Source: Antedon mediterranea
Lineage: Eukaryota > Animalia > Echinodermata
DNA length: 64,000 nt
Assembly: GCF_964355755.1 (NCBI RefSeq)
Contig: NC_092670.1
Span: 31,298,388-31,362,387 of the forward strand
Reading direction: 5' to 3'
The translations under genes were made by a program, and so were the position numbers. The notes below the pieces were generated by a model. That model was not told the origin of the DNA and searched no databases. It saw only the letters and a list, made by a program, of their open reading frames with translations. This document shows positions 1-43,500 of this stretch, in pieces. Positions within the stretch are counted from its first letter, which is position 1. Every line of letters begins with the position of its first letter.

Positions 1-4
1 CAGA

Positions 5-1401
5 ATGAATGCCTATAAACCAACAGTTGGTTTCACTCATTCCAAAGGAAAATCCACAGAATGCAACGTACCTTCTGAAAAAGTAAAGGATGACTACACA
101 AAGGAACCAACAGAGGCACGTAAAAGTAATGAAATAGATTTCACTCGGAAGCTAATCAAATCAGATCAGCAGCAGATGATTTCCCCATATTTTAAGTTTC
201 CAGTGCACAAAATATCGAGAGAAAATTTAGATTGTGATTACATTCAACTTCTTGATAAAAGCTCAGCTGATACTTTGTATAAACAATGTGAGGAAGAGAT
301 TGATTATTTTACAGGTGATCTTGCAAAGGTGAAAGTGTTTGGTAGATGGTTTAATATACCTAGAAAACAGGTTAGTTTCTCTTTATTTTTCTTCATGGTT
401 TCATGACGTTAATGTAGGCTACATACTATTACGTTTAAAAAGATGCATTTTTACATTTTAATTACAGGCCTACCGCACTGTTTTCGTTTTATGCAACAGA
501 ATAACAGTTAACCAGGCCTACCGCACTGTTTTCGTTTTATGCAACAGAATATTAACAGTTAACCAGAATCCAACTGATCATATAATTGTATATACATAAG
601 AGAAACATTTTTAATAGTATGTTTCAACTCTGACAGGTTTCTTATGGTGATATGGGTTTAACATACAAATATTCAGGCAATATAGTGCCAGCCTTGCCAT
701 GGCCACCGTTCCTGAAAGATCTTCGAGATTATTTGAAAGAAGTCACAGGGTTCTACTTCAATTTTGTTTTGGTTAACAGGTACATATTTATTATATATAT
801 GTTTATATTTGTTATAATTAAATAATGCAAAGCTTTCTTATGGCTACATTGTTTTAACATTGATAATGATTTATTCTCAATTTTACTCTCAAGATTGTAT
901 AATTGAACAATATCAGTAAATCAGTCTTTTCGTCAACTATTAGAATCTCTCACTTTTTAACCGCACAAAACTATGTTTAATTATGTTGTACGGTTTATTG
1001 TTTTTATGCTAAAAAGTTAAGTGCAAAATGGATATTTATGTAAATATTTTCTAGCTTTAAATTACAGTACAATTTTTTATTTTAATTTATGTTTCTTTAT
1101 TAGATATGCAGACGGTAATGATTCTATTGGTGAACATAAAGACGATGAGAAAGATATCAACAAATTTAGTTCAATCGCGTCCATTTCATTAGGTCAAACA
1201 CGAATGTTTAGATTTCGCCATGGGGCTACACGCGGAAAGAGACACAAAAGAAGTATTGAACCAGTAAATGTTGATCTTAAACATGGTAGCTTACTAATGA
1301 TGAATTATCCAACTAACGAGTATTGGTACCATTCACTGCCTAAAAAACCATCCATCAAACTACCAAGAATAAATCTTACATTTAGAGATATTAAAAGATG
1401 A
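5..1401 (+). CDS. ALKBH2: DNA oxidative demethylase ALKBH2 (AlkB family Fe/2OG dioxygenase), left-arm copy, ~268 aa
   Basis: Exons 5-370, 637-779 and 1104-1401 with GT-AG introns join in frame. Motifs match ALKBH2: VKVFGRWFNIPRKQ, SYGDMGLTYKYSG, FNFVLVNRY, IGEHKDDE (HxD), HGSLLMM..PTN..WYHSLP, RINLTFR. A further 5' exon outside the window cannot be excluded. Confidence 0.93.
467..565. repeat. ~48-bp tandem duplication in ALKBH2 intron 1 (mirrored at ~10759-10857)
   Basis: caggcctaccgcactgttttcgttttatgcaacagaata..acagttaacca occurs twice. Confidence 0.85.
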
Positions 1402-1763
1402 GAAAGGTAAGGATTACTTTAGAACGCAAATCTTATTAACAACAATTCATGAACAATTGTTCTAAAATGTAATAGTTATTACATGTATCTGTGTGGTTTC
1501 CTATACATTATTATTGGCGGCTGTCAAAACTATTTTTAACAATTCGTTTCTTGTTAACTGTAGTTGTAGACTGTAGTTGTAGACTGTAGTTGTATCTTCC
1601 TTTTTTTTTTTATTGAATTTAAATATTTTATTATTGTGTTTGACTTAATTTTATGTTTTTAACAACGAAAATGAAACTTTTTTTCTTTGCGGTTATTTAA
1701 GTATTTGAATTAGTATTTTATTTTCATTTGTGTGAGTGAGGAAAATGGAAGCATAGATTTATC

Positions 1764-2948
1764 AAATTTAAATACAATTTCTTTATTTCAAAATGAATTT
1801 CATTTTCTACGTGTTTTCAATTTTAAATCTTTTAAGAAAGACACAATACGTACTGCTAAATAAAAACGCACACAAAAGAAAACAAATTTGAGAGGCACGA
1901 TATGTAACGACGCTTTCATTACAACATTTTTGATGTAGCGATTTCTTCAAGTGGTATTGTCATGAACGTATTGAAAAGAAATTAGTTTTATTGTCAATGA
2001 TTTGTCAAGTGTTTTATTTTAATTTCAATTACTGTTGTATTGTATTTAGTTTTACCCGTTCATGTTGGAATGATCAATATTTGCTCAAACTCCATTTTAT
2101 CGTTATGTTTGTAGTATTTTAGAGATTTCCGATCATCGTAATAATGATATAACTAGAATTCGTAACCGTGTGTTAGATTCCATGCGTATTATGACATATG
2201 CCTTCTCTCGTTATTCACCCGATGTATTTTGATCAAAAAATTGTACCTGAGCATGAAAGGTTAGTTGTTATGGTACAAGGAATCGGCCCGGAAAATAATT
2301 TGTTTTTTTTTCTGTTAAATAATTATTATATGTTTGTGAAGTGTATTGCAATAGATTTGTTTAATGAAATAAAATAATTATGTTTTGACTTAATATATGT
2401 CAGTGTAAATTTGTAAGAATACGGTAGTTTTCCTATTTTAATTCATCATAAATTTATTTCTTGACTTTATTTTTTTTCTCTTTTCTGTTAAAGGTTTATT
2501 ATTATTTTGTTTTGTAAAGTGTATTACAATATAATGTGTATGAAATACATTTTGTTTTTAACATCAACAACAAAAATGAAATTTGATCTTTGCGTGTTGT
2601 TTAACTCGTGTATGAAGTTTATGAATTTGTTAAATGTAATTGCAAACATACATAATAAATGATTGTGATTAAAAATATTCTGTTTACTTTATTTTTATTT
2701 TAAACAGTAGTATTTTTAACAGTAGTTATATTTTATATATAATAAGTAATATTAGAAAAATAAACATACAAAATGTATAAAGTATAGACTTATTAAATTT
2801 AATTACAATTTCTTTATTTCAAAATGAATTTCATTTTCTACGTGTTTTCAATTTTAAATCTTTTAAGAAAGACACAATACGTACTGCTAAAAAAACGCAC
2901 ACAAAAGAAAACAAATTTGAGACGCACGATATGTAACGACACTTTCAA
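1764..2948. repeat. ~155-bp direct repeat (1764-1918 and 2795-2948), mirrored in the right arm
   Basis: acaatttctttatttcaaaatgaatttc...gcacgatatgtaacgac is present twice, about 1.03 kb apart. Confidence 0.85.
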
Positions 2949-3424
2949 TAAGAAGGCATATTATAAATGTATTTTTTACCAAATTTATAAAGTAAATGGT
3001 TATTATTGAGAAATATACATTTTAGATAAATGATAACACATCTAAAATTAATTAGAGAGATCAATACATTATGGTGTTCATAATAATTTGTTTTGATGAC
3101 TAGAGGAAACATCTGAAGACATTCAACGAAAAACAAGCGTTAACACCATACCAGTCACTAAGAATGCTACTACTCTGAAAAAAAAAACCATCTCCCTTCC
3201 TACACAGAAACAAATTCTGTACGAAAATAAAAAATTAAAAAATTAAAATAATTAGTAAACAAAATACACGCATTATAAATAAAATGAATAATTTAAGAAT
3301 ATTTGTTAAACTATCCACGAACAAAAAAACGAAACATACTAACCGATTCATCGTCATTACGAAGTTCAAATAACGAAAACTTTTCCTTGAAAAATCCACA
3401 GGAGACACATTTTACATTTTCTAA

Positions 3425-3700
3425 CTACAATTCAGTGTCACATTGTGTCGCAACACATGTACATACAACGAGACCTGTCACAAGTCTGCCGACATTTATT
3501 TTTCTATCGCTCATCATTTGTTCTAATACATAATACAACGCTTCTGAAGAAATATCTTTACACAATTCTAACACATTAAAATTGTTTTCCAACTCTTTAC
3601 AAGCACGAATAGTACTCTGGAGGATGGGTGAATCCAAAACAACTAACCCCGTCAATTTATATTCAATGTATGCTAAAACTAATTCCTCTAAATCAACCAT
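3425..3700 (-). pseudogene. Compact intronless Bcl-2-family-like ORF (BH4/BH3/BH1-like), stop after BH1; left copy
   Basis: LEELVLAYIEYKL resembles BH4 (NRELVVDFLSYKL). IRACKELENNF is BH3-like. VLEQMMSDRKINVGRLVTGLVV resembles BH1 (VVEELFRDGVNWGRIVAF). The frame stays open for 37 codons after the TAG. Confidence 0.6.
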
Positions 3701-4380
3701 AACGCTCGACAAAACAAATGATAATGGATGTAATTACCAAGAAAGTTACAACTTAAAACCTTTATTTTTGTTTTTAAAAAGAAGTTGTAACATAGAAACT
3801 AATTTTGTCAGGAAATGTGTTTTTATTATTTATGTGATTTATTTGTGTTTAGAAGGTTACAACATTAACATTTAATTTGGTCAAAAAATGTGAATATACG
3901 GAGCCGATTGTAATTTTTAATCCTTAGTATAGTGAGAGATTTTATAAACAAAAAAGAGCGAACGCAAATTAATGATTGCAGATTAGACATATAGAAATGG
4001 ATTGAAATTGGAAATCTACATGATCAAAGAAAAGAAAGCCATTGTTCCGACAGAAGCTAATGACATTTACAAAGGAGGACACAGTTTGAATAGAGTAATT
4101 ACCGTATAACATAATTAAATTTTGTCAAGATAGTTGTCAAAAATAAATAAAATATATTATACTGAATTTACTTTGTACATTTATTTAATTTAGACCGTAA
4201 TTAGGTTTGTTGTTCATTTATAATTGTGAAAAAAAAAAATACATACTAATAAAACAGCTATATAAAAAGTTTTTTTTTTTAAATAATGATTCAGTGTTAT
4301 AATTTTATTTACCTGTCATTATGTTAATAAACCATATTCTAAATTTAATTTATATCATGTTAGATATATTTTCAAGGACC

Positions 4381-5080
4381 TTTGTTACATAAAAATAAAT
4401 TTGTAAAGAAATTTGTTACATAAGATAAATTTTGTTAAGAAGTTTGTTTCATAAACATATTTGTGTAGATAAATTTGTTACATAAAAATAATTTTGTAAA
4501 GAAATTCGTTACATAAATTTATTTTTTACAAGAAGTTTGTAACAGAAAATTATTTTGCAAAGAATTAGTTGCATCAATTGATTTTATCAAACGTATGTAA
4601 CATAAAAAATTATGTTGTTGAAAAAAAAAAAAACATTTTGTAATTCAGTCCATTTGCTCAGTAGTTTGTTTAAGTTGTTAAGTCTTGTTTGTGTAATATT
4701 CTTGTAAATAAAAGAATTCATTTTTAACCTTTGTAATTATTTTGTAAATATCATTTATGCATTTTTTTTTTTGGTAAATAATTGAATTTATTTATACTTT
4801 TTGTATGGAAATAATTATACTAATTTTAAATATCATTATTTGTTTATAAATTTAATTGTGATTTTAGATTTCTTCTTTATTTAGTATGTCGATTAATTTC
4901 AGATTCAGAAACATGTTACACAAGAAACAAAAATCGTCATGAAATTCGTTACATAAAAAATAATTTATCAAGAATCTTTTTTAACATAAATTTAATTTTA
5001 TCATTAAATTTGTTATAAAATTTATTTTGTCATTAAATTTGTTACATAAAAAAATAATTGTTTCATGATTCTTGTTACAA
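4381..5080. repeat. Degenerate ~31-bp tandem repeats with GTTACATAA core (4381-4615 and 4940-5080; mirrored ~6255-6957)
   Basis: tttGTTACATAAaaataaatttgtaaagaaa-like units; perfect core at 4384, 4415, 4477, 4508, 4948 and 5041. Confidence 0.75.
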
Positions 5081-5472
5081 TTTTTCCTTTTGTTCAACTA
5101 CTTACATGAAAATTCAAGTTAAGAACGCAATGACAATAGTTGGGCGTTTAGTGTGATTAGCGGACCGCTTTCCTCCGGTAAATCGGTATTTGTTAACAAT
5201 CTTTTAGAGAATAATTACTTTGACAAGTCGTTTGATGATATGATATAGTGTTATGGCAAATATCAAACTTAGTTTACGGAACTAATTACTGCAACATATG
5301 ACATAAGTTTTACGAAGGGTATACTTATACATTGGATGTTTTCGATGTTAGTAAAAAACACAATAGTGAATAACTAGTTGTTTATTTACACATTCACTGC
5401 TATAATTACAATTAGAAGGTCATAAAGGGTAAATCGGTATTCTTTAAAGAATTAGGCCTATAAATATTTAAA

Positions 5473-5625
5473 TTGTCGAGTTACTTGACGTTAGAGAAGT
5501 AAATGTTGTTTGTGTTTACATGTGTGTCATAGTAGATAACGAATTATAAAACCATTACATTGTCGAGTTTCTTGACGTTAGAGAAGTAAATGCTGTTTGT
5601 GTTTACATGCATGTAATAGTAGAGT
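5473..5625. repeat. ~87-bp tandem repeat next to the palindrome centre
   Basis: ttgtcgagtt.cttgacgttagagaagtaaatg.tgtttgtgtttacatg occurs twice; a third unit start (ttgtcga) lies inside the spacer. Confidence 0.8.
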
Positions 5626-7636
5626 TTGTAATTACGGTTTTTTTTTTTTCAATATAAATGTATTATATGTTGTCGATAGTTGTGTAAAAAAAAAAAACCG
5701 TAATTACAAACTCTACTATTACATGCATGTAAACACAAACAGCATTTACTTCTCTAACGTCAAGAAACTCGACAATGTAATGGTTTTATAATTCGTTATC
5801 TACTATGACACACATGTAAACACAAACAACATTTACTTCTCTAACGTCAAGTAACTCGACAATTTAAATATTTATAGGCCTAATTCTTTAAAGAATACCG
5901 ATTTACCCTTTATGACCTTCTAACTGTAATTATAGCAGTGAATGTGTAAATAAACAACTAGTTATTCACTATTGTGTTTTTTACTAACATCGAAAACATC
6001 CAATGTATAAGTATACCCTTCGTAAAACTTATGTCATATGTTGCAGTAATTAGTTCCGTAAACTAAGTTTGATATTTGCCATAACACTATATCATATCAT
6101 CAAACGACTTGTCAAAGTAATTATTCTCTAAAAGATTGTTAACAAATACCGATTTACCGGAGGAAAGCGGTCCGCTAATCACACTAAACGCCCAACTATT
6201 GTCATTGCGTTCTTAACTTGAATTTTCATGTAAGTAGTTGAACAAAAGGAAAAATTGTAACAAGAATCATGAAACAATTATTTTTTTATGTAACAAATTT
6301 AATGACAAAATAAATTTTATAACAAATTTAATGATAAAATTAAATTTATGTTAAAAAAGATTCTTGATAAATTATTTTTTATGTAACGAATTTCATGACG
6401 ATTTTTGTTTCTTGTGTAACATGTTTCTGAATCTGAAATTAATCGACATACTAAATAAAGAAGAAATCTAAAATCACAATTAAATTTATAAACAAATAAT
6501 GATATTTAAAATTAGTATAATTATTTCCATACAAAAAGTATAAATAAATTCAATTATTTACCAAAAAAAAAAATGCATAAATGATATTTACAAAATAATT
6601 ACAAAGGTTAAAAATGAATTCTTTTATTTACAAGAATATTACACAAACAAGACTTAACAACTTAAACAAACTACTGAGCAAATGGACTGAATTACAAAAT
6701 GTTTTTTTTTTTTTCAACAACATAATTTTTTATGTTACATACGTTTGATAAAATCAATTGATGCAACTAATTCTTTGCAAAATAATTTTCTGTTACAAAC
6801 TTCTTGTAAAAAATAAATTTATGTAACGAATTTCTTTACAAAATTATTTTTATGTAACAAATTTATCTACACAAATATGTTTATGAAACAAACTTCTTAA
6901 CAAAATTTATCTTATGTAACAAATTTCTTTACAAATTTATTTTTATGTAACAAAGGTCCTTGAAAATATATCTAACATGATATAAATTAAATTTAGAATA
7001 TGGTTTATTAACATAATGACAGGTAAATAAAATTATAACACTGAATCATTATTTAAAAAAAAAAAACTTTTTATATAGCTGTTTTATTAGTATGTATTTT
7101 TTTTTTTTCACAATTATAAATGACCAACAAACCTAATTACGGTCTAAATTAAATAAATGTACAAAGTAAATTCAGTATAATATATTTTATTTATTTTTGA
7201 CAACTATCTTGACAAAATTTAATTATGTTATACGGTAATTACTCTATTCAAACTGTGTCCTCCTTTGTAAATGTCATTAGCTTCTGTCGGAACAATGGCT
7301 TTCTTTTCTTTGATCATGTAGATTTCCAATTTCAATCCATTTCTATATGTCTAATCTGCAATCATTAATTTGCGTTCGCTCTTTTTTGTTTATAAAATCT
7401 CTCACTATACTAAGGATTAAAAATTACAATCGGCTCCGTATATTCACATTTTTTGACCAAATTAAATGTTAATGTTGTAACCTTCTAAACACAAATAAAT
7501 CACATAAATAATAAAAACACATTTCCTGACAAAATTAGTTTCTATGTTACAACTTCTTTTTAAAAACAAAAATAAAGGTTTTAAGTTGTAACTTTCTTGG
7601 TAATTACATCCATTATCATTTGTTCTGTCGAGCGTT

Positions 7637-7912
7637 ATGGTTGATTTAGAGGAATTAGTTTTAGCATACATTGAATATAAATTGACGGGGTTAGTTGTTT
7701 TGGATTCACCCATCCTCCAGAGTACTATTTGTGCTTGTAAAGAGTTGGAAAACAATTTTAATGTGTTAGAATTGTGTAAAGATATTTCTTCGGAAGCGTT
7801 GTATTATGTATTAGAACAAATGATGAGCGATAGAAAAATAAATGTCGGCAGACTTGTGACAGGTCTCGTTGTATGTACATGTGTTGCGACACAATGTGAC
7901 ACTGAATTGTAG
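7637..7912 (+). pseudogene. Compact intronless Bcl-2-family-like ORF; right copy
   Basis: Mirror of 3425-3700, with one Arg->Cys change and a synonymous change. Confidence 0.6.
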
Positions 7913-9922
7913 TTAGAAAATGTAAAATGTGTCTCCTGTGGATTTTTCAAGGAAAAGTTTTCGTTATTTGAACTTCGTAATGACGATGAATCGGTTAGTA
8001 TGTTTCGTTTTTTTGTTCGTGGATAGTTTAACAAATATTCTTAAATTATTCATTTTATTTATAATGCGTGTATTTCGTTTACTAATTATTTTAATTTTTT
8101 AATTTTTTATTTTCGTACAGAATTTGTTTCTGTGTAGGAAGGGAGATGGTTTTTTTTTTCAGAGTAGTAGCATTCTTAGTGACTGGTATGGTGTTAACGC
8201 TTGTTTTTCGTTGAATGTCTTCAGATGTTTCCTCTAGTCATCAAAACAAATTATTATGAACACCATAATGTATTGATCTCTCTAATTAATTTTAGATGTG
8301 TTATCATTTATCTAAAATGTATATTTCTCAATAATAACCATTTACTTTATAAATTTGGTAAAAAATACATTTATAATATGCCTTCTTATTGAAAGTGTCG
8401 TTACATATCGTGCGTCTCAAATTTGTTTTCTTTTGTGTGCGTTTTTTTAGCAGTACGTATTGTGTCTTTCTTAAAAGATTTAAAATTGAAAACACGTAGA
8501 AAATGAAATTCATTTTGAAATAAAGAAATTGTAATTAAATTTAATAAGTCTATACTTTATACATTTTGTATGTTTATTTTTCTAATATTACTTATTATAT
8601 ATAAAATATAACTACTGTTAAAAATACTACTGTTTAAAATAAAAATAAAGTAAACAGAATATTTTTAATCACAATCATTTATTATGTATGTTTGCAATTA
8701 CATTTAACAAATTCATAAACTTCATACACGAGTTAAACAACACGCAAAGATCAAATTTCATTTTTGTTGTTGATGTTAAAAACAAAATGTATTTCATACA
8801 CATTATATTGTAATACACTTTACAAAACAAAATAATAATAAACCTTTAACAGAAAAGAGAAAAAAAATAAAGTCAAGAAATAAATTTATGATGAATTAAA
8901 ATAGGAAAACTACCGTATTCTTACAAATTTACACTGACATATATTAAGTCAAAACATAATTATTTTATTTCATTAAACAAATCTATTGCAATACACTTCA
9001 CAAACATATAATAATTATTTAACAGAAAAGAAAAAAAATTATTTTCCGGGCCGATTCCTTGTACCATAACAACTAACCTTTCATGCTCAGGTACAATTTT
9101 TTGATCAAAATACATCGGGTGAATAACGAGAGAAGGCATATGTCATAATATGCATGGAATCTAACACACGGTTACGAATTCTAGTTATATCATTATTACG
9201 ATGATCGGAAATCTCTAAAATACTACAAACATAACGATAAAATGGAGTTTGAGCAAATATTGATCATTCCAACATGAACGGGTAAAACTAAATACAAAAC
9301 AACAGTAATTGAAATTAAAATAAAACACTTGACAAATCATTGACAATAAAACTAATTTCTTTTCAATACGTTCATGACAATACCACTTGAAGAAATCGCT
9401 ACATCAAAAATGTTGTAATGAAAGCGTCGTTACATATCGTGCCTCTCAAATTTGTTTTCTTTTGTGTGCGTTTTTATTTAGCAGTACGTATTGTGTCTTT
9501 CTTAAAAGATTTAAAATTGAAAACACGTAGAAAATGAAATTCATTTTGAAATAAAGAAATTGTATTTAAATTTGATAAATCTATGCTTCCATTTTCCTCA
9601 ATCACACAAATAAAAATAAAATACTAATTCAAATACTTAAATAACCGCAAAGAAAAAAAGTTTCATTTTCGTTGTTAAAAACATAAAATTAAGTCAAACA
9701 CAATAATAAAATATTTAAATTCAATAAAAAAAAAAAGGAAGATACAACTACAGTCTACAACTACAGTTAACAAGAAACGAATTGTTAAAAATAGTTTTGA
9801 CAGCCGCCAATAATAATGTATAGGAAACCACACAGATACATGTAATAACTATTACATTTTAGAACAATTGTTCATGAATTGTTGTTAATAAGATTTGCGT
9901 TCTAAAGTAATCCTTACCTTTC

Positions 9923-11319
9923 TCATCTTTTAATATCTCTAAATGTAAGATTTATTCTTGGTAGTTTGATGGATGGTTTTTTAGGCAGTGAATGGTACCA
10001 ATACTCGTTAGTTGGATAATTCATCATTAGTAAGCTACCATGTTTAAGATCAACATTTACTGGTTCAATACTTCTTTTGTGTCTCTTTCCGCGTGTAGCC
10101 CCATGGCGAAATCTAAACATTCGTGTTTGACCTAATGAAATGGACGCGATTGAACTAAATTTGTTGATATCTTTCTCATCGTCTTTATGTTCACCAATAG
10201 AATCATTACCGTCTGCATATCTAATAAAGAAACATAAATTAAAATAAAAAATTGTACTGTAATTTAAAGCTAGAAAATATTTACATAAATATCCATTTTG
10301 CACTTAACTTTTTAGCATAAAAACAATAAACCGTACAACATAATTAAACATAGTTTTGTGCGGTTAAAAAGTGAGAGATTCTAATAGTTGACGAAAAGAC
10401 TGATTTACTGATATTGTTCAATTATACAATCTTGAGAGTAAAATTGAGAATAAATCATTATCAATGTTAAAACAATGTAGCCATAAGAAAGCTTTGCATT
10501 ATTTAATTATAACAAATATAAACATATATATAATAAATATGTACCTGTTAACCAAAACAAAATTGAAGTAGAACCCTGTGACTTCTTTCAAATAATCTCG
10601 AAGATCTTTCAGGAACGGTGGCCATGGCAAGGCTGGCACTATATTGCCTGAATATTTGTATGTTAAACCCATATCACCACAAGAAACCTGTCAGAGTTGA
10701 AACATACTATTAAAAATGTTTCTCTTATGTATATACAATTATATGATCAGTTGGATTCTGGTTAACTGTTAATATTCTGTTGCATAAAACGAAAACAGTG
10801 CGGTAGGCCTGGTTAACTGTTATTCTGTTGCATAAAACGAAAACAGTGCGGTAGGCCTGTAATTAAAATGTAAAAATGCATCTTTTTAAACGTAATAGTA
10901 TGTAGCCTACATTAACGTCATGAAACCATGAAGAAAAATAAAGAGAAACTAACCTGTTTTCTAGGTATATTAAACCATCTACCAAACACTTTCACCTTTG
11001 CAAGATCACCTGTAAAATAATCAATCTCTTCCTCACATTGTTTATACAAAGTATCAGCTGAGCTTTTATCAAGAAGTTGAATGTAATCACAATCTAAATT
11101 TTCTCTCGATATTTTGTGCACTGGAAACTTAAAATATGGGGAAATCATCTGCTGCTGATCTGATTTGATTAGCTTCCGAGTGAAATCTATTTCATTACTT
11201 TTACGTGCCTCTGTTGGTTCCTTTGTGTAGTCATCCTTTACCTTTTCAGAAGGTACGTTGCATTCTGTGGATTTTCCTTTGGAATGAGTGAAACCAACTG
11301 TTGGTTTATAGGCATTCAT
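9923..11319 (-). CDS. ALKBH2: ALKBH2, right-arm copy (Tyr->Cys in SYGD relative to the left copy)
   Basis: Exons 11319-10954, 10687-10545 and 10220-9923 are the reverse complement of the left copy. TAT>TGT change at 10680. Confidence 0.92.
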
Positions 11320-12022
11320 TCTGGTAGAGATCTACTGAAATGTCTATTTTGACTACAACCTTATACACAGAATATTGTATATAAAATAATTTATGCATGA
11401 TGTCAGTAGCGTCCCTCTTTACCCACTTTTTGTTTTATTTTAAAAAGAAACAAAGAAATCTTTTCGTAAACGTAGCCAATTTAAATGAAAATAAAACTAA
11501 ACATTGGAAAACAAAAATCATGAAAAATAGTGAAACTAACATCATGACGTCACACATTAAACTTTAGTATGTCAAACACCCCGTGTCACTGCTTTCGATT
11601 TATACCCTTTGTTAACAAATCCGGAAGATGGTTAATTACCTGTCGGTATAGTTCAATCAAGACATACTTATTATTTAACTTCATTCATTCTTATCTTTTT
11701 GTTTTAGTCATTGTTATAATATCCGGATCAAATAACTTATGTCTTTGGATTATGTCGGCATACATCAAGCAAAAACCTCAATTAACTAGTTTTAATTAAC
11801 CAGGTGCATCTTTATTGACTCTGACTAATTCAAATCTTACAAAAACTATATTGTCTCACTTCCTTACCCTATGTTAACCATTGTATTATAATCCGAAACA
11901 TAACACCTATTGACTTCAACCATTGTAAACCATTTTGTTCTCATCACAAGCAACTAAATTACCATATCATTTTTTATTTAATATTTATTAATTTTATATT
12001 ATAATGTATATTAATATATAAC

Positions 12023-12396
12023 AAATCTATATAACAATTCTAGTGAAATGATATACTCTATTGTCTTATACTATCCCCATTGTTAACCATTGTTATAACC
12101 ACGACTGACTATCCGTGTAACGATCATCTATATCACTGCCTGGAACAACAACAGTATCCTCACATTAGAAACACCTGGCGGATATTACGTAATCAGGAAA
12201 TAAAATTAATAAATATTAAATCTATATAACAATTCTAGTGAAATGATATACTCTATTGTCTTATACTATCCCCATTGTTAACCATTGTTATAACCGCGAC
12301 TGACTATCCGTGTAACGATCATCTATATCACTGCCTGGAACAACAACAGTATCCTCACATTAGAAACACCTGTCGGATATTACGTAATCAGGAAAT
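12023..12396. repeat. ~195-bp near-identical tandem duplication
   Basis: aaatctatataacaattctagtg...atattacgtaatcaggaaata at 12023 and 12218. Confidence 0.9.
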
Positions 12397-12846
12397 ACCT
12401 CAAGGTTAACTTTGGGCTGAAGTACCTTTCTTTCTACTAATGTTCGTAAAAATTGTCAAATTTAACATTTTTGAAAAATTGAGACGTCTATTATTTCTAA
12501 AATTGATTCATTTCTTTGTGAAATAATAGATGAAATGTTTTCATTGAATAAACTATTCCACATATTATAACCACAACCGAAATTATCCAGAACAGTTTTT
12601 GCCATTTTCCGCCCACGATCTTTGAGTTTGGTCGCATATATTTGGTAATCTATTATTTTCCATTTTATTTATTTTATCCAATACTTTATCATTCTCAATA
12701 TTTGATAGTAATTAATTGGAATTATATACCTGTTTGTTACGCGAATATTATGGTAAACTTGCACTGTTGTTTTATATATTATTTGCTCACGACAGTTTAA
12801 TATCGGTGAACGATAAAAACTACTAATCGTATTTGTTTGTACTTAC

Positions 12847-21894: not shown

Positions 21895-22012
21895 TCTAGA
21901 AAAAAAACCATGGATTCTATAATATACAAACGATACATTGACCAATCACAAGCGATGGCTTTTATTATTTTATTTTATTATTGGAAGGACTCTTTGCATT
22001 GGCCAACACGCT

Positions 22013-22480
22013 ATGGAACGCCTCCTCTGCCTTCAGTTCACATTTATCATGCAGTACACACCAATGGTAATGCAGTACACACCAATCGTCATGCAGTACA
22101 CACCAATGGTAATGCAGTACACACCAATCGTCATGCAGCACACACCAATCGTCATGCATTACACACCAAACGTCATGCAGTACACACCAAACATCATGCA
22201 GTACACACCAATCGTCATGCAGTACACACCAAACATCATGCAGTACACACCAATGGTCATGCAGTCGTGCATGCAGTACACACCAATGGTCATGCAGTAC
22301 ACACCAATGGTCATGCAGTACACACCAATCGTCATGCATGACCATTGGTGTGTACTGCATGATGTTTGGTGTGTACTGCATGACGATTGGTGTGTACTGC
22401 ATGACCATTGGCATGTACTGCATGAAGATTGGTGTGTACTGCATGATAAATGTCAACTGAAGGCAGAGGAGGCGTTCCAT
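22013..22480. mobile_element. Foldback-type non-autonomous DNA transposon with opposed 21-bp tandem repeats
   Basis: TIR atggaacgcctcctctgccttcagtt. TSD AACACGCT at 22005-22012 and 22481-22488 (a 6-bp reading is also possible). Empty site in copy A (~13685-13695). (catgcagtacacaccaatggt)n flips orientation at ~22336. Confidence 0.9.
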
Positions 22481-23511
22481 AACACGCTTACGCAGTGAGT
22501 CTACGTTCTTGCGTGGGTCCTGTGGAAAGCAAACTTAAGGTTGGTATAATAAATTAGCATAAACAAACATCAGTTAGGCCTATGTCGGAATAGGCTTACT
22601 CTACACCATCGCCTCTTATAGGCCAAGATGGTACGCTCTCTTCGCACACGTACGATCTTGGTCGGTTCTCGAATACACAATATAATTTCAGTATAATAAA
22701 AACTGGCGATTTCAAAATGTACGTACCGCAGGACAATAATACATGTCGTTTACAGCAACGATAAATAGACACATTGAATTATATAGTTAACTAAAATTAG
22801 CACCCTTGGAATTACCTCCGATAGAGAAAGTCACAAAATGAGTCCAAATGTTTGAGTCAAATTTAAACAAAACCAATTTGTGTTTTGTATGTAACATTAG
22901 GGTTGGGGGATGACGACGAACTGCATATGAGGCGTAGGTAGGCGTGAATATGTTATGGGTACTATTTATAAAATTGGAATGGTAAAATCTTGATTTAAAA
23001 AAAACAACCTTAACGTTAATATAAAGACTTCTAAAAAAAAATCTTAAAAGTAACGGAATAATAGGCCTGCCTACACAAATGTAACTGCTACGCTGTTTAA
23101 CGCTTGTGTGTGAAGAACCACTAGTATACCGATGAATTAATGAATAACTTTCAACGCGGCTAAAGTTTATAACCAGGATTTGATATTGCGATGTCATACA
23201 TCAATACTATTTCAAGGTCGCGGTTATTATTGTCACTGCTTGTATCCTGGTTGAAAACACTGTGAACGAATTAGCCAACTAGTGTAGTGTACTTTCAATA
23301 ATTTCAACACTACTCACTAATTAATTGCATTCAGATGGAACATCTGAAGACATAAGAGATCTGTAGGCCTATTTGAAATATATATATATAATATATATAT
23401 AAACACAGTAGGCAAAGAACACTAATTCCAAACCGCCCGGTGATATACTGAAATTTAATTAATTAATTTGAAACGATAAAGATGAGGAAATCTGTGAGAA
23501 TGAGAAAAAGT

Positions 23512-23583
23512 CGCCCCAACCGAGACTCGAACTCGGACCGCCTGCTTGATATGCAGATGTCCTAACCATTAGACCACTGGGGC
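23512..23583 (-). tRNA. tRNA-Asp-like cloverleaf (anticodon ATC) inside a ~270-bp insertion; likely repeat-borne or pseudo-tRNA
   Basis: 72 nt: acceptor GCCCCAG/TTGGGGC, D-arm TGGTCTAATGGTTAGGAC, anticodon arm TCTGC-ATATCAA-GCAGG, T-arm CCGAG-TTCGAGT-CTCGG, followed by TTTTT. Confidence 0.65.
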
Positions 23584-23666: not shown

Positions 23667-23770
<104 letters not shown>

Positions 23771-33527: not shown

Positions 33528-36500
33528 TTTTTTTTTTATTAGTACAAAACTGAATTGCGTCCAGTAACATAAACATAAAAAATATATCAAAAACGAGCAA
33601 AATTTACACAAACATCCAATATAAATATATATACTGTATATATATATATACAAAACTGCATTAAAAAAAAATATAAAGAATATACAATTACAAATTTACA
33701 AAGATATATATTAAAAACGAGCAAAATTACACAACCATCCAATATAAAAATATATATATACACATAAATTCATAACAAAAAAATAAAGAATATACAATTA
33801 CAATTTAAAAAACTGCGAGTAAAATTATTAATTATCCGTAGGCCTATCAACATTAAAAATTTCATATATATATATATTATTGCACTATAAGGTCATTGTT
33901 AATCAGGAATGGGAGTGTGGATTTCTTAAATCTCTCTGTTCTACATTTAATTTGGGATATTTTGTTTCCGTTTCTGAGAGATCTACCTGTCGCTTCGGCA
34001 CGGGTATTGGGGATAATATTATTAAATTTTTCATGGACACTCCTCCCAAACTTCAGAACAAGCTGGAGACGGCGGTCACAGAGCCTATCAAGAGAAAATT
34101 TCTTTAGGGCTGCAGTGTACGAATAGTACCTCCTCCCTAGTACAATTCTTAAAAACCTCTTCTGGACCGATTCCAGGTCAAAGCTTAATTCGGAAGTCAG
34201 GGAGGAGTGCCAGGTTGGACAAGCATATTCAATTATGGGGCGTATGAAAGATTTATAAATCTTAATTAACTGATCTTCTGGTGCACCAAACCTTTTAAGT
34301 ACCGACACAATATGCATGGCTTTATTGGCCTTGCTAACGATCTCACCAATGTGTGCATCCCACTTAAGGTTATCTTGGATAGTTACACCTAAAAGCTTCA
34401 ATTGCTTAACAGTCTCAACTTGGACTCCATTATTAGTCAGTAAATCATAGTAACCAGGAGTTTTGCAAAAGTTAATCTCCACTGATTTACACTTATTAGG
34501 GTTAAGGGACATTTTATTTATTTTACACCATTCCTCTAAATTACTAAAGTACGATTGAATAGAGTCCAGACAGTGAGATATCAGCGAAGGTTAGATCGTC
34601 GACAAATTTCCACCTTGTAATGCAATCTGATGCCGAGTCATTGACCATTACTTGAAAAAGGCTTGGGCCAGATTTCGTTCCTTCCGGAACACCGCAAAAT
34701 ATAGATGTCCAACTGGAAATAGCGCTACCATAGAGCACTCTTTGTTTTCTACAAGTTAGGAAGCTACAGAATCACGGGATGATAGATTTCCTGACACCAT
34801 TGATATCATCTTACTGATTAGTACCTGGTGACTAATACGGTCGAAAGCTTTGCTGAAATCTACAGCAAGAATTCGTGCTTTGTGACCAGGTTTTTCCAGT
34901 CCAGAAAGAAGGTAGTGTAAGAGCCCAATAAGGTAATGACTCGTGCTGATACCTTTGACATTACCAAACTGCTGTTTATCTATAATGGTAGATAGGTCTT
35001 CATTTAACCATTTAGTTAGAAAATGTTCAAAGATTCGGATAAACAGTGGCGTAAGCGAGATCGGTCTAATCTGTTCTATACTGACTGTACCTTTTTTCTT
35101 TGGTATCGGTATAACGGTAGCTTGTTTCCAAGCTTTGGGTACAATACCTTCTTTCAAAGAAGAATTAAATATATGCGTTAGGGGTTCTGCTATTTCGGGT
35201 GCAAATTCTTTGATGATAACTGGTGGAATTTCTCCAGGTGGAACTGATTTATTAATCTGCACTTTTAATAATTGTTGTTTAACTTCAAAGCATAACATTT
35301 GTGGCGGTGGACTCTCAGCTGGGAGGTATGTAGGCAATTCGTCAAGTTTGAGAGGATCCAGTTCACGACAAATTTTTGCGAGGTGTTCATTAATTTGTTT
35401 AGAGGCAACGGAATCTGGGATCGGTAAAGGATTATCAAATGTAATTCTTGGTTTGTCTTTACGTTTACCACAAATCTGCTTCACTTTGTCGTACCATTTA
35501 CGGAGATTGCTCACCTCAAGCATTTTTACTTTATAACGATAGTACTTCTCCTTAGCTTTCTTTATTTCCCATATTACCTTATTTCTAAGTGTTTTGTAAC
35601 GTTCATGTTTTTTCTTCCTAAAAGCAGTTTGTCTATACCTGATAAGTTTTTTTAATGTATGGAGTGATCCAAGGTCTATCGGTAGAATACACTCGCAAAT
35701 GTTTGGTAGGAAAAAACTTCTTGTACGCGGAGGTGAGGGTATCGTTCATTATGTTCACTTTATCATCTACATCTTTTATATTATAGACCTGTGACCAGTC
35801 AAATTTGGTAATCCAGTTTCCGAAACTTCTCATCGATGAATCAGTACAAGGCTTAAAAATCTTTGTAACCATTTTACCATTACACTTAATTGAGTTCAGC
35901 GGTTTCCAAATAATGACATTGTGATCACTTTTTCCAAGTGGGGCTTGAATTGTAGGAGTCATATAAAAATCTTTAAGGTCCGAAATTATGAGATCAAGCA
36001 TTTTGTCTCCTCTGGTTTTATCTTTAACAACTTGGTGCAAATCAACGACATGTTTAATAGAGAGGAGATATCAACACTGTTGAAATCCGCAGCAATAATG
36101 ACTTTTGCTAAATTTCTTCTTGAACGGATAGTGTCAATCGAATTTCTAAGATGGTTTAAGAGGTCACGTTGATGGTCTTTGTTTTGGCTGGGGCTACAAT
36201 AAATGGTACACACATATATTTCAGAAACTTCACGGGGAAGCTTATAAGGCTGTAATTTGACCCAAACACATTCTAGTTCGTCTGGAACAGTAATAAAATC
36301 AACGTGATCAGAAGGAATGCTGTTGTGGACGTAGGTTGCTACACCTCCTCCTCTGGTATTTGTGCGGCTCTTATAGAAAATGTTATAGTTACTGACCTTG
36401 CAAATATAGTCTCCATTAAACCATGTTTCCGCAAGTGTACAAACTTGGATGTTATTATGTTCGAGTGTTACCTGAAGGTCTTCCATTTTATTACAAATAG

Positions 36501-36594
36501 AACATGGATTCGTAAATAAGCCGCGCTGAGTATGCCCAATTGGCAATATACATATTGTCTTTGAATTTGAGGAGTCATAAAGTGTGGAAATCAT
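33528..36594 (-). mobile_element. Non-LTR retrotransposon (CR1/L2 group), APE endonuclease plus reverse transcriptase, frameshifted
   Basis: APE motifs (LAETWF, RGGGVATYV, IIAADFN, LDLII, GKSDH) and RT motifs (RPISLT, QQFG, DFSKAFD, GVPEG, KFVDD, LLGVTI) are split over five ORFs, 36594-33877. The 3' UTR ends in AATAAA plus an A-tail at ~33528-33540. Confidence 0.95.
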
Positions 36595-37575: not shown

Positions 37576-40500
37576 ATGCTGAACCTAAAAAGATGTTTAC
37601 AAGTCACAAGGTTTTTACCAAGAAAAGTGTTAACTACTGTAGATGTTAGTAACCGTCATTTAAACACTGGTGAGTTTTTTAGTTGTTGGTTAAAAATGAC
37701 TATTTTTACTTGTATTACAAGTATATTTCTGGTCTTATGTTTGTACAATAAATCATCCACAATTTTCCAGTTATCGTTCAGGCCAACTTGCATTTTTGTT
37801 GTATGATATGTCATCATCATTCATCATTATCTTCATCTTTATTAATTTGTTTTTTTTTATTAAAGGTATCCTCCAACTGGGGAATGAAGTACAGCATGCC
37901 TTAAAGCATGGCTTACCATTGGTGGCCCTTGAAAGCACAATTATAACACATGGAATGCCATACCCACACAATGTCAGGTATGTTCTTTTCTTTTCTATTT
38001 CACATCCAGAAGCTAGCCAGCCAGTAACAGGATAGATATATTGTCATGCTTATAAACAGTCTCATTTGACACTATATATTAGTTTAAGATTAAACCCTGT
38101 CAACACTGGAACTGACTAACTAAACTAGTCGTGGTTACCTTATCAATTTTTAGTTGTAGACGAACCAGTATGCGCAGTGGCTTAAATCAAATGTATCGCT
38201 ACTGGTCGCGTTTAATTCCTGTTCCGCCTGTCAGTTGCATTCAGTTGCTCAAGTTGAGGTGAGTTCCGTATTGATATAAATAAGCCTTAATCTGATATAA
38301 AAAAATAAATGTTTTCAGGACTGCATGTGAAGTGGAGCAGATTGTACGTGACGGTGGCGCCATTCCAGCAACAGTTGGTGTAATAAATGGCAATCTCCAT
38401 GTTGGCTTGACTTCTGACCAACTAGAACAACTAGCATCATGCATGGATGCTATCAAAGTATCTAGGAGAGATTTAGCATGGTCACTCAGTCAAGTTAGTA
38501 TATATTATTGGTTTAGGTAAATGTAAAAGGTAAATATATGTAACCTGTAGTTTGTCAATTACTGGCCTAACATGTTTAGAAATTAAATATTAAATTGACT
38601 TATTTACTAATTAAAATTCATAAAAAAAAAATATGGAAGATGAAAAGAAATTGATTAACAATATTTAAAACTTTGTCTACACTATCAAACCAGGGAGTTG
38701 TAAAATTTACAACTCCCTGATCAAACTTTATGTGACAACAGAATGGGATGTGCCCATATATGGACATGATGATATATCACTACCGTATTTGGCCACATCA
38801 CACTTTTTTGGTCAAACTAGTTTGATATGTAGACAGAGCTTTGAAAAATAAATCTGATAAGCCAGCCATAACAAAATAACATGAGGATTTAAATAATTAT
38901 ATTGTGTTTAATACAGTTGTTATGTAAATAGAGTTGTTATGTAAATAGATGTTTCATAATTTTTTGTTTTTTTTAGGGTAAAGTTGGTGGAACCACAGTA
39001 GCTGGCACAATGATCGCAGCTCACTTGGCTGGTATACAGATATTTGTAACGGGTGGTATTGGTGGTGTACATCGAGGTGCAGAAAACAGTGAGTTATTTG
39101 ATGTCATATAGAGGATAAATTTCATAGAATTTAAAGAGATGTCAATTCTACTAAAAAAAAACCAAAAAGGCTAATTTAAATGCATGAGAACCCCCTGCAC
39201 ACAGTTCAGTACTTTCCCTGTTGGTATTGAAGAATTCTTTTACTGCCTTCCTATTTCTTTTTCATCGTAATTGTACTGATGTTTGTAGTGGCCAAAGGTA
39301 ATCATTGGATATGCTGTACATTAGACCATGGAGACCTTATTTCACCATGATTAGATGCAGTGATCCAATCAGGGACTTGAGTGACCCTGCCCATAATGAT
39401 CCCCCTGGCCTGGGAGGAGAGCATAATAAAGGGCCCCACCTTGGTTTACAGGACCGCCTATTATTTAAATAATAAACAAATAAATAAAATTTTGTTTAAA
39501 ATAAATAAATAGATATACTGTATAGTAGGCCTGTTAAGTGAACCAATCCTTCAAATTGTGATAACATTCTAAAACTTTGCACAGTTATTCATTAGGGTGT
39601 TAAAAATATGAAATGGAAGGGTTGCACAGATATTGGTCAGGGGAAAGCCGCCATTTTGGATTTCAAAATGGCGGACCCCAAATGTTCACTTTTCAGGTAT
39701 ATCTCTGCTATTCTAAAGAGGCACCTAGAGTTCTGATTTTAGTTGCAAATTATATGATAATAGGGTCACCAAACATATTGGTATAACTAACATTTTGATT
39801 GCATGGCGGCCATTTTGGATTTCAAAATGGCGGACTTTAAATTTTCACTTTTCAGGTATATCTTAATGAATGTCTTCGAACCATTGGGCCTGAGCATATT
39901 GATTATTGCTGGTCCATCTAACACCTTGGCATCAACTAATGGTTGATGTAAGGAGGGTCGTCAAAGACAGCGGGAGCATGCCCAACAATTGGACCACATT
40001 TTGACGCCATGCAATCAAAGACGTTATACCAATATGTTTGTTGACCTCAATACCATTTTATACTCTGTACCTAAAATTATAACTGTAGGTACCGTACTGA
40101 AACATTTTGAGTTCGCCATTTTGAGATTCAAAATGGCCACAATGCAATCAAAATGTTATAGTTAAATACCAATGTTTGGTGACCCATTACCATATAATTT
40201 GCACCTAAAATCAGAACTCTCTGTACCTTTTTAGCAGAGATATACCTGAAAAGTGAAAATTTGGGGTCCGCCATTTTGAAATCTAAAATGGCCACCATTC
40301 AATCAAAATGTTAGTTATACCAATATGTTTGGTGACCCCATTACCATATAATTTGCACCTAAAATCAGAACTCTAGGTACCTTTTTAGCAGAGATATACC
40401 TGAAAAGTGAAAATTTGGGTCCGCCATTTTGAAATCCAACATGGCCGCCATGCATTCAAAATGTTAGATATACCAATATTTTTGGTGACCCCACTACCAT

Positions 40501-43500
40501 ATAATTTGCACCTAAAATCAGAACTCTAGGTGCCTTTTAAGCAGAGATATACCTGAAAAGTGAAAATTTGGGGTCCGCCATTTTGAAATCCAAAATGGCG
40601 GCTTTCCCCTGACCAAATTTTGTGCAACCCTTCCATTTCATGTTTTTGACACCCTAATGAATAACTGTGCAAAGTTTCAAAATATTATCACAATTTGAAG
40701 GATTTGCCTAAAATATGCACCTTATGCCTACTAGTACATTTAAGTTGCCTCAGGCAAAGGCAATGCATACAGTATGTCAACGTCAGTCAATGACGGCCTG
40801 AGAACAGCTAAATAAACAAGAACAAAGAACCTGTAACAACAAAATCTTTTAACAATATGCTTCACTATAGGTATGGACATCAGCTCAGATCTCACTGAAC
40901 TCGGAAAGACACCTGTTACTGTTGTTTGTGCTGGAGCCAAGTCAATATTAGATATTGGAAGAACACTGGAATATTTAGTAAGTGCTGTAAAAAAGAAAAG
41001 TTGCGGTTTAATGTGAGACTAAAGCTCTGTCTACAATATCAAACTTTATGTGACAAAAAAATGTGATGTATATTTAAGCATATCACTACCATATTTGGAC
41101 ACATCACACTTTTTTTTCAAACTAGTTTGATAGCATTTATTTATTTATTTATTTCCTTTATTGCATCAAGTAAACAGTGATGAAGTTGACATAAATATTT
41201 AAAAAACAAAAACAAAACAAAAAAAAAACAAAACAAAAAACAAAACAAAAAAAAAACAAACAAAGCGTAGACTGAGCATCATGTCAAAATTGGTAGTCAA
41301 GAGACACTGAATGTGCAGGGGGTTATTATTATCAAACAATACAGAAAGAATTATAAAGATCTTGCGCATTTATTTAGGAGTGTCTTAATCATTATCAGAA
41401 ATTGTAATTATCGGAAATTTCTGTTGAGGCCGAGTTATTAGAATCCTGGTGAGATAATTAAAATACATTAGTGTCTTCTTCAACTGTGGTGCTTATTCAT
41501 ATCGGGCCCTCATTTAACTGCGACGATTGCTGTATTCAATTGTGTCTTTCGTTCTTATAAGCTGCATATTTTAACTGCACCAATTTTAACTGAGTTGCTT
41601 ATTGAAGAATATTAGAAATATAATTAGTTATACAAACAAAATAAAAGTTTGTATGTAAAGTATGTATACATAAAATATTATACAAGTAATGAATATTTGT
41701 GTTTGTTTTGCAAATAAAAATTCAAGTTTGTTTTTCAAACACTTTGATCAGGAAACCCAAGGAGTAACTGTAGCAACATACGGTGATTCTAAATATTTCC
41801 CAGCATTCTTTTCACCAGCCAGTGAGTACCTGTCTCCCTGTAATGTATCAAATGCAACTGAGGCTGCTCAGATCGTTGGTGAGTTTTTAAATTATATATA
41901 GTATCGGCATTTGTGAAAATTGAGGCTTATGAATTTCAACGAATTATTCACTGTATGCTATGGTGTGCACTGGCAGCTCAGGCCTAAAAAACAGTGTGTG
42001 TAATAATAATATACAAATAATCAATGTTTATGAGTGGAATAGTATAAATAATTTCATGAGGTAAAGTTGAGGCAACGCCTCAAGAATATCATGTTTCTAT
42101 CTAACGATCAAGTTGAATAAAAACAATACTGTCAAAATGCTTGGTCAATTGTAGATTATGTACAGTAAGTCAATGACTTCTACAACAAATAGAAATGTGT
42201 TATAATACAATAATTGTGTGTAATGCATGTGGCGGAGAGTTTATTAGTGAAACAAAAATAAAGGTCCTGAGACATTTATCCAAAAAATTTTTCTATGTAT
42301 ATTGGTATGGTATTTCAATATATGAGTAATAACAATTTTAAAAATGTGATAAGAAGAAAGTTCATTTTATATTTAGAAATCTTTTTATTCTGTTTTTGCA
42401 TTTTTAGCAACAAACAAAGCACTTGAACTGAACAGTGGCATTTTAATTGCTGTTCCTATCCCAGAATGCAGTGCCAAAGATAGTTCACAAGTTGAGTCTG
42501 CAATACAGACATCTTTAGAAGAAGCAAAGTGAGTGAACATTTGGAAGTGGCTATTGTTCAACCATGCATGCAATTTATTATTTTTCTATCGGCATGGTTA
42601 AAAGTGCATCTTGTGTGAATTTTTCTATTGCCAGATATGTTAGATCTTAGAAGCAAAGTATTAGACACACAGTTGATCATGCCGATAGAAAATATTGAAT
42701 TTACACACATGGTCAGCCATAGAATACTTTAAATTACATGCACAAAACATAAACAATCTCATTTGTTTTATTTAGTTTATGTCTCCCTCCAATCATGGAG
42801 GTAAAAAATAAGTTGCAATGAAAAATTGTACGGTCATTTTTTTAAACTATCTATTTTTCTTTTTGTACAGTCATTTTTTAAACTCTCTATTTTTGTTTTT
42901 AAGGCACACGGTGCAAATAGGAAAAGATGTTACACCATACATCTTAAAAAGAGTAAATGAAATTACTGGAGGAACAGCTCTGCAAGCTAGTATCCTTAAA
43001 TGTGGTGCATGAGTTGAACTTGGAAAGTCAAGTGTTTGAGTAATTGAGGCAGGGTCATTTCAATATATATTGTAGATTAAAGTTTTGAGGCTGTCCTCAT
43101 CCCCAAATCGTATTGCTAAGAACTTAATGCTTAATTGATTGGTATTAGTGATTGTAGTGTAACATTATAAAACAAGTGTGGACATTCATAGAAGTTGTGT
43201 AGTCATAAAATCGGCACAGGTCTGGGCTCTCCTCAACCATAGTGCTTATTACGTAAGGTTGGAGATCAAGTGTACACATTTGGCTTGTGTGAAGAATTCA
43301 GTACACTATAGTGCGCTACTTCCGACTTAGTCGTCAACAGATCAAGTGTGTCATTCACACCTGTGCGCAATTCAGCCCAGTAATACTTCACCTCACAGGT
43401 TATTCTCCACATTTAATACAAAACATCGTTTACTGTTAATTTAACGAGTTATCTTACATTTAATTGTTGTGTATTGGAATATAACCTTCCAACCCCTACT

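What the first reader, a model, noticed from the sequence alone, without database searches (positions are those of the whole stretch)
1..11323. Giant (>=11.3 kb) gene-carrying palindrome with only a 36-bp spacer
Seen: arms of at least 5.65 kb meet at T12-36bp-A12. They are not identical. By eye there are roughly 15-20 substitutions or indels, e.g. a 13-bp unit present 3x at 1557-1593 but 2x in the right arm, and coding changes in both genes. The ALKBH2 copies converge and the Bcl-2-like copies diverge. Established: long palindromes with tiny spacers are normally unstable (cruciforms, breaks), and arms can be homogenised by gene conversion. Inference: either a real, maintained fold-back duplication that doubles a repair plus anti-apoptosis cassette, the junction of a hairpin-ended or linear element, or an assembly join of two haplotypes.
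Basis: partly seen in the sequence, partly recalled or inferred. Interest (0 to 1): 0.85.

Follow-up and report, generated by a model that had tools for sequence, protein, structure and literature searches.

The report
Folded-back Polinton remnant carrying ALKBH2
A feather-star chromosome holds two near-identical mirror-image halves of a broken repeat that likely derives from a virus-like Polinton transposon and likely captured a DNA-repair gene; it likely arose when one copy folded back on itself, so it is probably a known kind of accident rather than a selected gene cassette.

Summary
The palindrome is in the assembly as described: arms 1-5649 and 5686-11323, a 36-bp spacer, 14 substitutions and 3 indels (0.25%). 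The ALKBH2 copies match annotated Antedon mediterranea proteins, and the window lies mid-chromosome. The inner 2.4 kb of the arm (the only part laid on reads) is a multi-copy repeat, about 4% from its sisters. It holds a broken packaging ATPase whose best hit is a crinoid Polinton-type protein, and a Bcl-2-like frame with a stop in both arms, so there is no working anti-apoptosis cassette. One sister contig appears to run from the spacer into non-mirrored DNA, which points to a fold-back at about 3 bp of microhomology. The DNA right of the arm ends at 12438 on a Maverick-like end motif, where a host repeat resumes. Best reading: a young, roughly 13.5-kb defective Polinton made of two copies of one half, with ALKBH2 as cargo (0.55). 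No read was seen across the junction, so an assembly artefact stays open (0.25). The 1.2 kb upstream of the window would decide it. The scan noted similar fold-back palindromes in other animal genomes.

The parts
1..5649 (.). Left arm; runs off the window, predicted to go on for about 1.1 kb
   Evidence: prediction
5650..5685 (.). 36-bp spacer, single in the palindrome; likely ordinary internal sequence of the repeat family
   Evidence: (depth in the first bin in all 4 runs; X5 joint at 5688)
5686..11323 (.). Right arm, 14 substitutions and 3 indels from the left arm
5638..5697 (.). T12-spacer-A12 centre; the inferred template switch lies at about 5686-5689
5..1401 (+). ALKBH2-like gene, left copy (exons 5-370, 637-779, 1104-1401), 268 aa, open frame, Tyr125
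   Evidence: equals P0121 / XP_071944657.1; PF13532 and human ALKBH2 structures match the right-arm twin
9923..11319 (-). ALKBH2-like gene, right copy (exons 11319-10954, 10687-10545, 10220-9923), 268 aa, open frame, Cys125
   Evidence: equals P0001 / XP_071944660.1
3311..3700 (-). Bcl-2-like intronless frame, left copy, broken by an in-frame stop at 3425-3427
7637..8026 (+). Bcl-2-like intronless frame, right copy, broken by an in-frame stop at 7910-7912; weak family assignment
   Evidence: PF00452 E 8e-4, below cut-off; best solved hit a viral Bcl-2, E 0.19
5150..5329 (+). Broken packaging-ATPase remnant, left copy, pointing to the centre
   Evidence: 60% to P0137 392-451
6006..6185 (-). Broken packaging-ATPase remnant, right copy (stops and loss of frame)
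   Evidence: (E 8.7e-15)
4381..4617 (.). 31-bp minisatellite between the Bcl-2-like frame and the ATPase remnant (mirror 6728-6954)
11324..12438 (.). Candidate terminal region of the element, unique in the window, with a 195-bp tandem pair at 12010-12397
12433..12438 (-). Candidate element end, 5 of 6 letters of the (AGT)2 Maverick end motif, at the point where a host segmental repeat resumes
12439..12444 (+). Predicted 6-bp target-site duplication (partner outside the window, not seen)
   Evidence: inference

Best explanation
The palindrome is two 99.7%-identical halves of one broken repeat copy that is likely a non-autonomous Polinton/Maverick derivative, likely made in one recent fold-back event and predicted to span about 13.5 kb between two like ends. 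Shown: the arms, two open ALKBH2 genes, a broken ATPase, a broken Bcl-2-like frame, the multi-copy nature of the inner 2.4 kb, and a breakpoint at 12438. Inferred steps: (1) a Polinton lineage lost its polymerase and took up ALKBH2 and a Bcl-2-like gene as accessory cargo next to one end; (2) one copy decayed at this site; (3) a broken or nascent 3' end just past the spacer paired by about 3 A's with the T12 run 36 bases back and copied the same half in reverse; (4) the copied end replaced the other end, through homology between the terminal repeats or by integration of a snap-back replicon, which avoids a dicentric chromosome; (5) the 36-base loop and a few mismatches let it persist. The doubling of ALKBH2 is a by-product.
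For: Arms differ by 0.25% (95% CI 0.14-0.42%), with even density in the outer and inner arm (9/3298 vs 5/2351, p 0.79). All 32 listed sister pieces differ from the arm, pooled 4.1%, so both arms come from one copy; they also share the same stops. 477, 212, 50 and 74 contigs of runs X1, X2, X5, X6 lie on 5650-8060. The ATPase remnant's best hit among 1.84 billion proteins is an Anneissia model holding DNA_pol_B_2 and Pox_A32 (E 8.7e-15). An X5 contig of depth 123.4 leaves the spacer at 5688 into non-mirrored sequence; bin arithmetic gives whole numbers of covered bases (61, 25, 30, 23). An X6 contig also has other DNA before 5710. Upstream of the shared anchor, host repeat units 2 and 3 stay 68-80% alike while unit 1 falls to 43-56%; downstream, unit 1 is 80-90% alike. 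Only 1% of positions are as close to an end motif. Precedents: 2-8 bp inverted microhomology at human fold-backs (PMC3907307); a 35-bp spacer in wild-type yeast and repeat-mediated closure (PMC10622511); Bcl2 homologues in adintoviruses (PMC8502044); intron-bearing cargo beside the terminal repeat in nematode Mavericks (10.1101/2022.07.12.499685). 14 substitutions and a 13-bp indel are not what one folded read gives (inference).
Against: No read or contig was seen across the spacer-to-right-arm junction. The laid stretch began at 5650, so a spanning contig would show only as running over the end. At most listed sites where the window differs from the family, its own letter has little or no depth in the four runs; the tool warns that contigs drop rare variants. 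The X5 joint has only 23 letters on its short side, and that the pieces are one contig is inferred from equal depth. The left end and the target-site duplication lie outside the window. The end motif is 5 of 6, and 12438 could be any rearrangement breakpoint. No polymerase remnant was found, and no frame of 90 aa or more for other core genes. The 268-aa ALKBH2 has only these two annotated copies and is 80% from the multi-copy PC4-fused form, so its cargo status is inferred; the outer arm was never laid on reads. At 4 of 4 sites that could be polarised the left arm has the family or host state, which is lopsided but not significant.
Confidence: 0.55

Rival explanations
1. Assembly artefact: one real element copy was assembled twice, from a fold-back read or graph tangle, with the two arms taken from the two haplotypes.
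For: Junction not seen in reads. Fold-back reads can tangle assembly graphs (PMC12870357, passages). The region is a multi-copy repeat. The scan judged another palindrome to be such an artefact (e1-9944443, unchecked).
Against: No N in the window. The window starts at least 29.1 Mb into its piece. The spacer appears to be natural family sequence with microhomology, not adapter. The 0.25% arm difference is far below the 1.54% heterozygosity reported for another feather star (PMC13079724; a different species, so weak).
Confidence: 0.25
2. A real chromosomal fold-back (inverted duplication) that merely started inside a Polinton remnant and runs on into host DNA. ALKBH2 is then a host paralogue beside the remnant, and 12438 is an unrelated breakpoint.
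For: ALKBH2 has introns, a native start and only two annotated copies. The tree does not resolve it from the presumed host gene. Human fold-backs of this kind are common (PMC3907307).
Against: The ALKBH2 3' flank shares a 173-bp, 95% repeat with DNA further in (1749-1921 vs 2780-2950). The unique flank ends on an end-like motif exactly where a host repeat is cut. 14 other ALKBH2-family proteins on 7 other contigs, 12 of them forming one tight clade, suggest this gene is mobile in the species.
Confidence: 0.15
3. An old palindrome kept by selection and gene conversion to double a DNA-repair and anti-apoptosis cassette.
For: Both ALKBH2 frames are open and separately annotated; near-identical arms could also come from conversion.
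Against: The Bcl-2-like frame is stopped in both arms. The arms are decayed repeat DNA. Sister copies in the runs appear non-mirrored at the centre. Differences are evenly spread, with no old diverged edge inside the window.
Confidence: 0.05

Closest known systems
Fold-back inverted duplications (human, PMC3907307, abstract and section 8 read; yeast, PMC10622511, passages and section 11 read)
   Same: Inverted arms around a single-copy spacer; short inverted microhomology (inferred about 3 bp); closure likely through repeats; yeast wild-type cases had a 35-bp spacer.
   Different: Human spacers were 766-70,466 bp; here 36 bp. Here the event is predicted to be confined to one transposon copy, with no terminal deletion seen. 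The junction is not confirmed in reads.
Polinton/Maverick elements and adintoviruses (PMC8097293, passages and section 7; PMC8502044, passages; nematode Mavericks, 10.1101/2022.07.12.499685, passages)
   Same: Packaging-ATPase remnant facing the centre; multi-copy; candidate (AGT)2-like end; accessory genes near the end, including a Bcl-2-like frame; predicted size within the 12.7-24.6 kb range.
   Different: No intact polymerase, integrase, protease or capsid gene; both halves come from the same end; ALKBH2 cargo was not found in my searches.
Mu killer of maize (PMC3440606, abstract and passages)
   Same: An internally deleted, partly duplicated DNA element with both ends from the same side and an inverted duplication at the centre (here predicted).
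   Different: Mu killer has shown silencing activity, and that paper disputes the long-hairpin model. Here no transcript, small RNA or silencing is shown, and the element is of another class, in an animal.

Membership tests
Autonomous Polinton/Maverick | Protein-primed DNA polymerase B | tested here: not met
   tblastn of P0137 finds only its ATPase part in the window; other hits E 0.15 or worse
Autonomous Polinton/Maverick | Intact integrase, protease and capsid genes | tested here: not met
   The only frames of 90 aa or more in 1-12438 are ALKBH2 exons and the Bcl-2-like region; decayed remnants were not searched with profiles
Polinton/Maverick-derived (non-autonomous) | A32/FtsK-type packaging ATPase | tested here: met
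   Broken remnant; 56% to the ATPase part of P0137, E 8.7e-15; P0137 carries Pox_A32 and DNA_pol_B_2 above cut-off
Polinton/Maverick-derived (non-autonomous) | Terminal inverted repeats with a 6-bp end motif | tested here: inconclusive
   One candidate end at 12438, 5 of 6 to (AGT)2, at a host-repeat breakpoint; the other end is outside the window
Polinton/Maverick-derived (non-autonomous) | 6-bp target-site duplication | not testable with these tools
   Left end outside the window; no genome held
Polinton/Maverick-derived (non-autonomous) | Multi-copy family | tested here: met
   For 5650-8060 only: 50-477 contigs per run, 32 of 32 listed pieces differ, pooled 4.1%; genomic dispersal of these copies not shown
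Fold-back inverted duplication | Single-copy spacer between inverted copies | tested here: met
   36-bp spacer, no second copy in the window beyond one 12-mer
Fold-back inverted duplication | Short inverted microhomology at the junction | tested here: inconclusive
   About 3 A's inferred from one X5 contig with a 23-letter short side
Fold-back inverted duplication | Junction present in the organism's DNA | tested here: inconclusive
   Only Logan contigs were available; no spanning piece listed
Mu killer-type silencing locus | Both ends from one side of the element, with a central inverted duplication | tested here: inconclusive
   Central inversion shown; second like end predicted only
Mu killer-type silencing locus | Transcript through the centre, small RNAs, silencing in trans | not testable with these tools
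   No RNA holder listed; no raw reads
Bcl-2 family (PF00452) | Score above the curated cut-off, or a Bcl-2 fold | tested here: inconclusive
   20.4 bits vs cut-off 31.4; viral Bcl-2 best hit E 0.19; model unusable, pLDDT 35.6; atlas hits unrelated and under 0.9
ALKBH2 dioxygenase | 2OG-Fe(II) domain matching ALKBH2 over its length | tested here: met
   PF13532 107.6 bits; human ALKBH2 structures E 2e-67 over residues 70-266; activity untested

The most novel reading that the evidence does not exclude
This is an animal 'Polinton killer'. A snap-back Polinton derivative with two like ends is transcribed through its centre from the ATPase remnant. There is no plus-strand AATAAA between 4712 and 5949, so the RNA would fold into a hairpin of about 280 bp or more and yield small RNAs against a family that has captured ALKBH2 and a Bcl-2-like gene. 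With two good ends it could also be moved in trans as a unit.
Probability: 0.08. Interest if true: 0.75.

Novelty: new variant of a known kind. Interest (0 to 1): 0.38.

Why it matters
If real, it shows how a large palindrome with a tiny spacer can form in an animal germ line without wrecking the chromosome: the fold-back is closed by the transposon's own terminal repeats. It also points to a crinoid Polinton-like family that carries ALKBH2 (elsewhere fused to PC4) and a Bcl-2-like gene, cargo I did not find described. It gives a cheap test case for silencing of virus-like transposons by inverted duplications in animals. As a 'maintained gene-doubling palindrome' it does not hold up.

Tried and rejected
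No whole genome was held, so the DNA upstream of the window could not be read. Only 5650-8060 was laid on reads; the outer arm, ALKBH2 and the flank were not, so there is no arm-versus-flank depth test. No RNA holder was listed; this is no evidence on expression. Searches for relatives of the Bcl-2-like frame found none: longer proteins, near length, exact look-up 0 of 3, viral contigs, atlas with unrelated hits under 0.9. A single-sequence fold was unusable, so no fold search was run. The ATPase remnant was not searched in the atlas. PC4-ALKBH2 has no match in viral contigs. A 22-base spacer pattern has no match in metagenome contigs. Rfam on 1-34000 gave one tRNA-like hit. The bacterial promoter scan was at chance level and is irrelevant here. 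Rejected: two independent insertions head to head (the arms are about 16 times closer to each other than to sisters and share stops); a chromosome or hairpin end (the window is mid-piece); an adapter remnant as spacer (it appears in family contigs); a core duplicated later inside older long inverted repeats (inner and outer arm differences are equal). Summed contig depth was not used as copy number. Literature searches found no paper on ALKBH2/AlkB cargo or palindromic derivatives of Polintons; most subscription papers are not in the library. The Bcl2 examples of PMC8502044 are in supplements that I did not read.
Full report
Observation. The arms 1-5649 and 5686-11323 align end to end with 14 substitutions and 3 indels around a 36-bp spacer flanked by T12 and A12. 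That is 0.25% (95% CI 0.14-0.42%), spread evenly. Shuffles give inverted matches of at most 20 bp.

Where it is. The last ALKBH2 exon is identical to an Antedon mediterranea protein. The left and right genes translate exactly to two separately annotated 268-aa proteins on one 41.4-Mb contig. They come from an assembly that holds both arms, so they are not independent support. Earlier scan notes place the window at least 29.1 Mb into its piece, so position 1 is not a chromosome end.

What the arms hold. ALKBH2 is open in both arms and matches human ALKBH2 structures. The Bcl-2-like frame is intronless, weakly assigned (E 8e-4, below cut-off; best solved hit a viral Bcl-2 at E 0.19) and broken by the same stop in both arms. 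Most sister contigs read another letter within that codon, so the stop looks private to this copy. Near the centre lies a broken P-loop frame. Read with X at its stops, its best hit of 7 among 1.84 billion proteins is an Anneissia japonica model that joins a protein-primed polymerase to an A32-type ATPase (E 8.7e-15), which is the Polinton/Maverick module. No polymerase remnant is in the window.

The arm is a repeat. Eleven runs hold part of 5650-12000, none more than 0.43 of its words. I laid 4 of the 11 on 5650-8060 (contigs only). 477, 212, 50 and 74 contigs fit. All 32 pieces listed, of 860, differ from the arm, pooled 4.1%. The two arms are thus far closer to each other than to the family and derive from one decayed copy.

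The centre. In run X5 a contig of depth 123.4 joins position 5688 to sequence like 8038-8060, and a contig of the same depth joins 5755 to 6061. Bin depths convert to whole numbers of covered bases. I read this as a sister copy in which the left-arm sequence and the spacer run on into non-mirrored DNA after three A's. Run X6 also has other DNA before 5710. The window instead continues with the complement of the T-run, the pattern expected from a template switch on about 3 bp of microhomology. This rests on a 23-letter side and on inferring one contig from equal depth. No spanning piece was listed, but the laid stretch began at the spacer and could not have shown one as a joint. The window's own letters are mostly absent from these contigs, which the tool says may drop rare variants. 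So the junction is neither confirmed nor refuted.

The outer end. DNA from 11324 to 12438 is unique in the window and holds a 195-bp tandem pair. At 12438 the first of three copies of a host segmental repeat begins abruptly. The other two copies stay 68-80% alike upstream of that point while this one falls to 43-56%. Read inward, the end matches 5 of 6 letters of the commonest vertebrate Maverick end motif (PMC8097293, section 7); 1% of positions are that close. This suggests the element's end, puts ALKBH2 inside it, and predicts a total of about 13.55 kb with a left end about 1.1 kb before the window and a 6-bp duplication of 12439-12444.

ALKBH2 as cargo. The species has 14 further ALKBH2-family proteins on 7 other contigs, some fused to PC4, besides a presumed host gene with two isoforms. 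In a 24-row tree (two truncated proteins and one isoform left out) 12 of them form a tight clade (98/98) and the window pair forms another (100/98); the order among crinoid lineages is unresolved. The window form is 80% identical to the PC4 form and has only two annotated copies. Cargo status is therefore likely but not shown. Intron-bearing cargo beside the terminal repeat is known in nematode Mavericks (10.1101/2022.07.12.499685, passages), and Bcl2 homologues are reported in adintoviruses (PMC8502044, passages).

Mechanism. Most likely a fold-back inside one defective copy, closed through the element's own ends. Human fold-backs show 2-8 bp inverted microhomology and a single-copy spacer (PMC3907307, section 8). 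In wild-type yeast two of three inverted duplications used a 5-bp repeat with a 35-bp spacer, and duplications were closed at repeats (PMC10622511). Spacers above 8 bp escape one nuclease pathway and fork block (PMC8053094, passages). Whether the fold-back happened in the chromosome or in a replicating element cannot be told.

Rivals. An assembly artefact stays at 0.25: fold-back reads exist (PMC12870357, passages) and the junction is unseen. Against it are the natural spacer, real substitutions, no gap in the window, and a divergence well under the 1.54% heterozygosity of another feather star (PMC13079724, passages). A chromosomal fold-back running into host DNA is 0.15, and a selected cassette 0.05.

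Novelty. The architecture resembles maize Mu killer (PMC3440606, passages; that paper disputes the long-hairpin model). Long read-through from ALKBH2 is unlikely, since 12 plus-strand AATAAA lie between 1402 and 4712, but none lies between 4712 and 5949, so a short hairpin RNA through the centre is possible and untested. My searches found no palindromic Polinton derivative or ALKBH2 cargo. The scan has noted other fold-back palindromes and a palindromic Merlin element in other genomes (unchecked), and nothing like this sequence. Verdict: a new variant of a known kind, interest 0.38.

Noticed in passing
P0002, P0004, P0005, P0122-P0132: A. mediterranea has a young family of at least 14 ALKBH2-related proteins, some fused to two PC4 domains, on 7 contigs; only one Anneissia cluster was among the 120 hits listed. 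Likely spread by a mobile element.
   Followed up: partly
window 12438-32511: Three diverged copies (77-93%) of a gene-poor segmental repeat of about 8 kb, each with different insertions; it gives the empty-site comparison for 12438.
   Followed up: partly
window 1920-2300 (mirror about 9040-9420): Frameshifted remnant-like frames between repeated AT-rich 3'-flank motifs (1749-1921 matches 2780-2950 at 95%); possibly another decayed accessory gene.
   Followed up: no
window 22012-22481: Small fold-back insertion made of opposed 21-bp tandem arrays with 151-bp inverted ends, absent from the sister repeat unit at about 13690.
   Followed up: no
window 23512-23583 (-), 23669-23768: tRNA-like sequence (Rfam 57.9 bits) next to an (AT)50 run, inside an insertion in repeat unit 2; likely a SINE.
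   Followed up: no
window 33832-36594 (-): Broken LINE-type element with endonuclease and reverse-transcriptase frames.
   Followed up: no
window 39545-40704: Fold-back-like element with 319-bp inverted ends (92%) around a 153-bp tandem array.
   Followed up: no
window 37700-48000 (+) and 52800-56400 (-): Host genes: an Indigoidine_A-domain gene and a second multi-exon gene that I recall as TTC38-like (no call).
   Followed up: no
joints 5755-6061 and 5842-6061: Sister copies have at least two versions of the DNA downstream of the ATPase start, suggesting subfamilies of a non-autonomous element.
   Followed up: no
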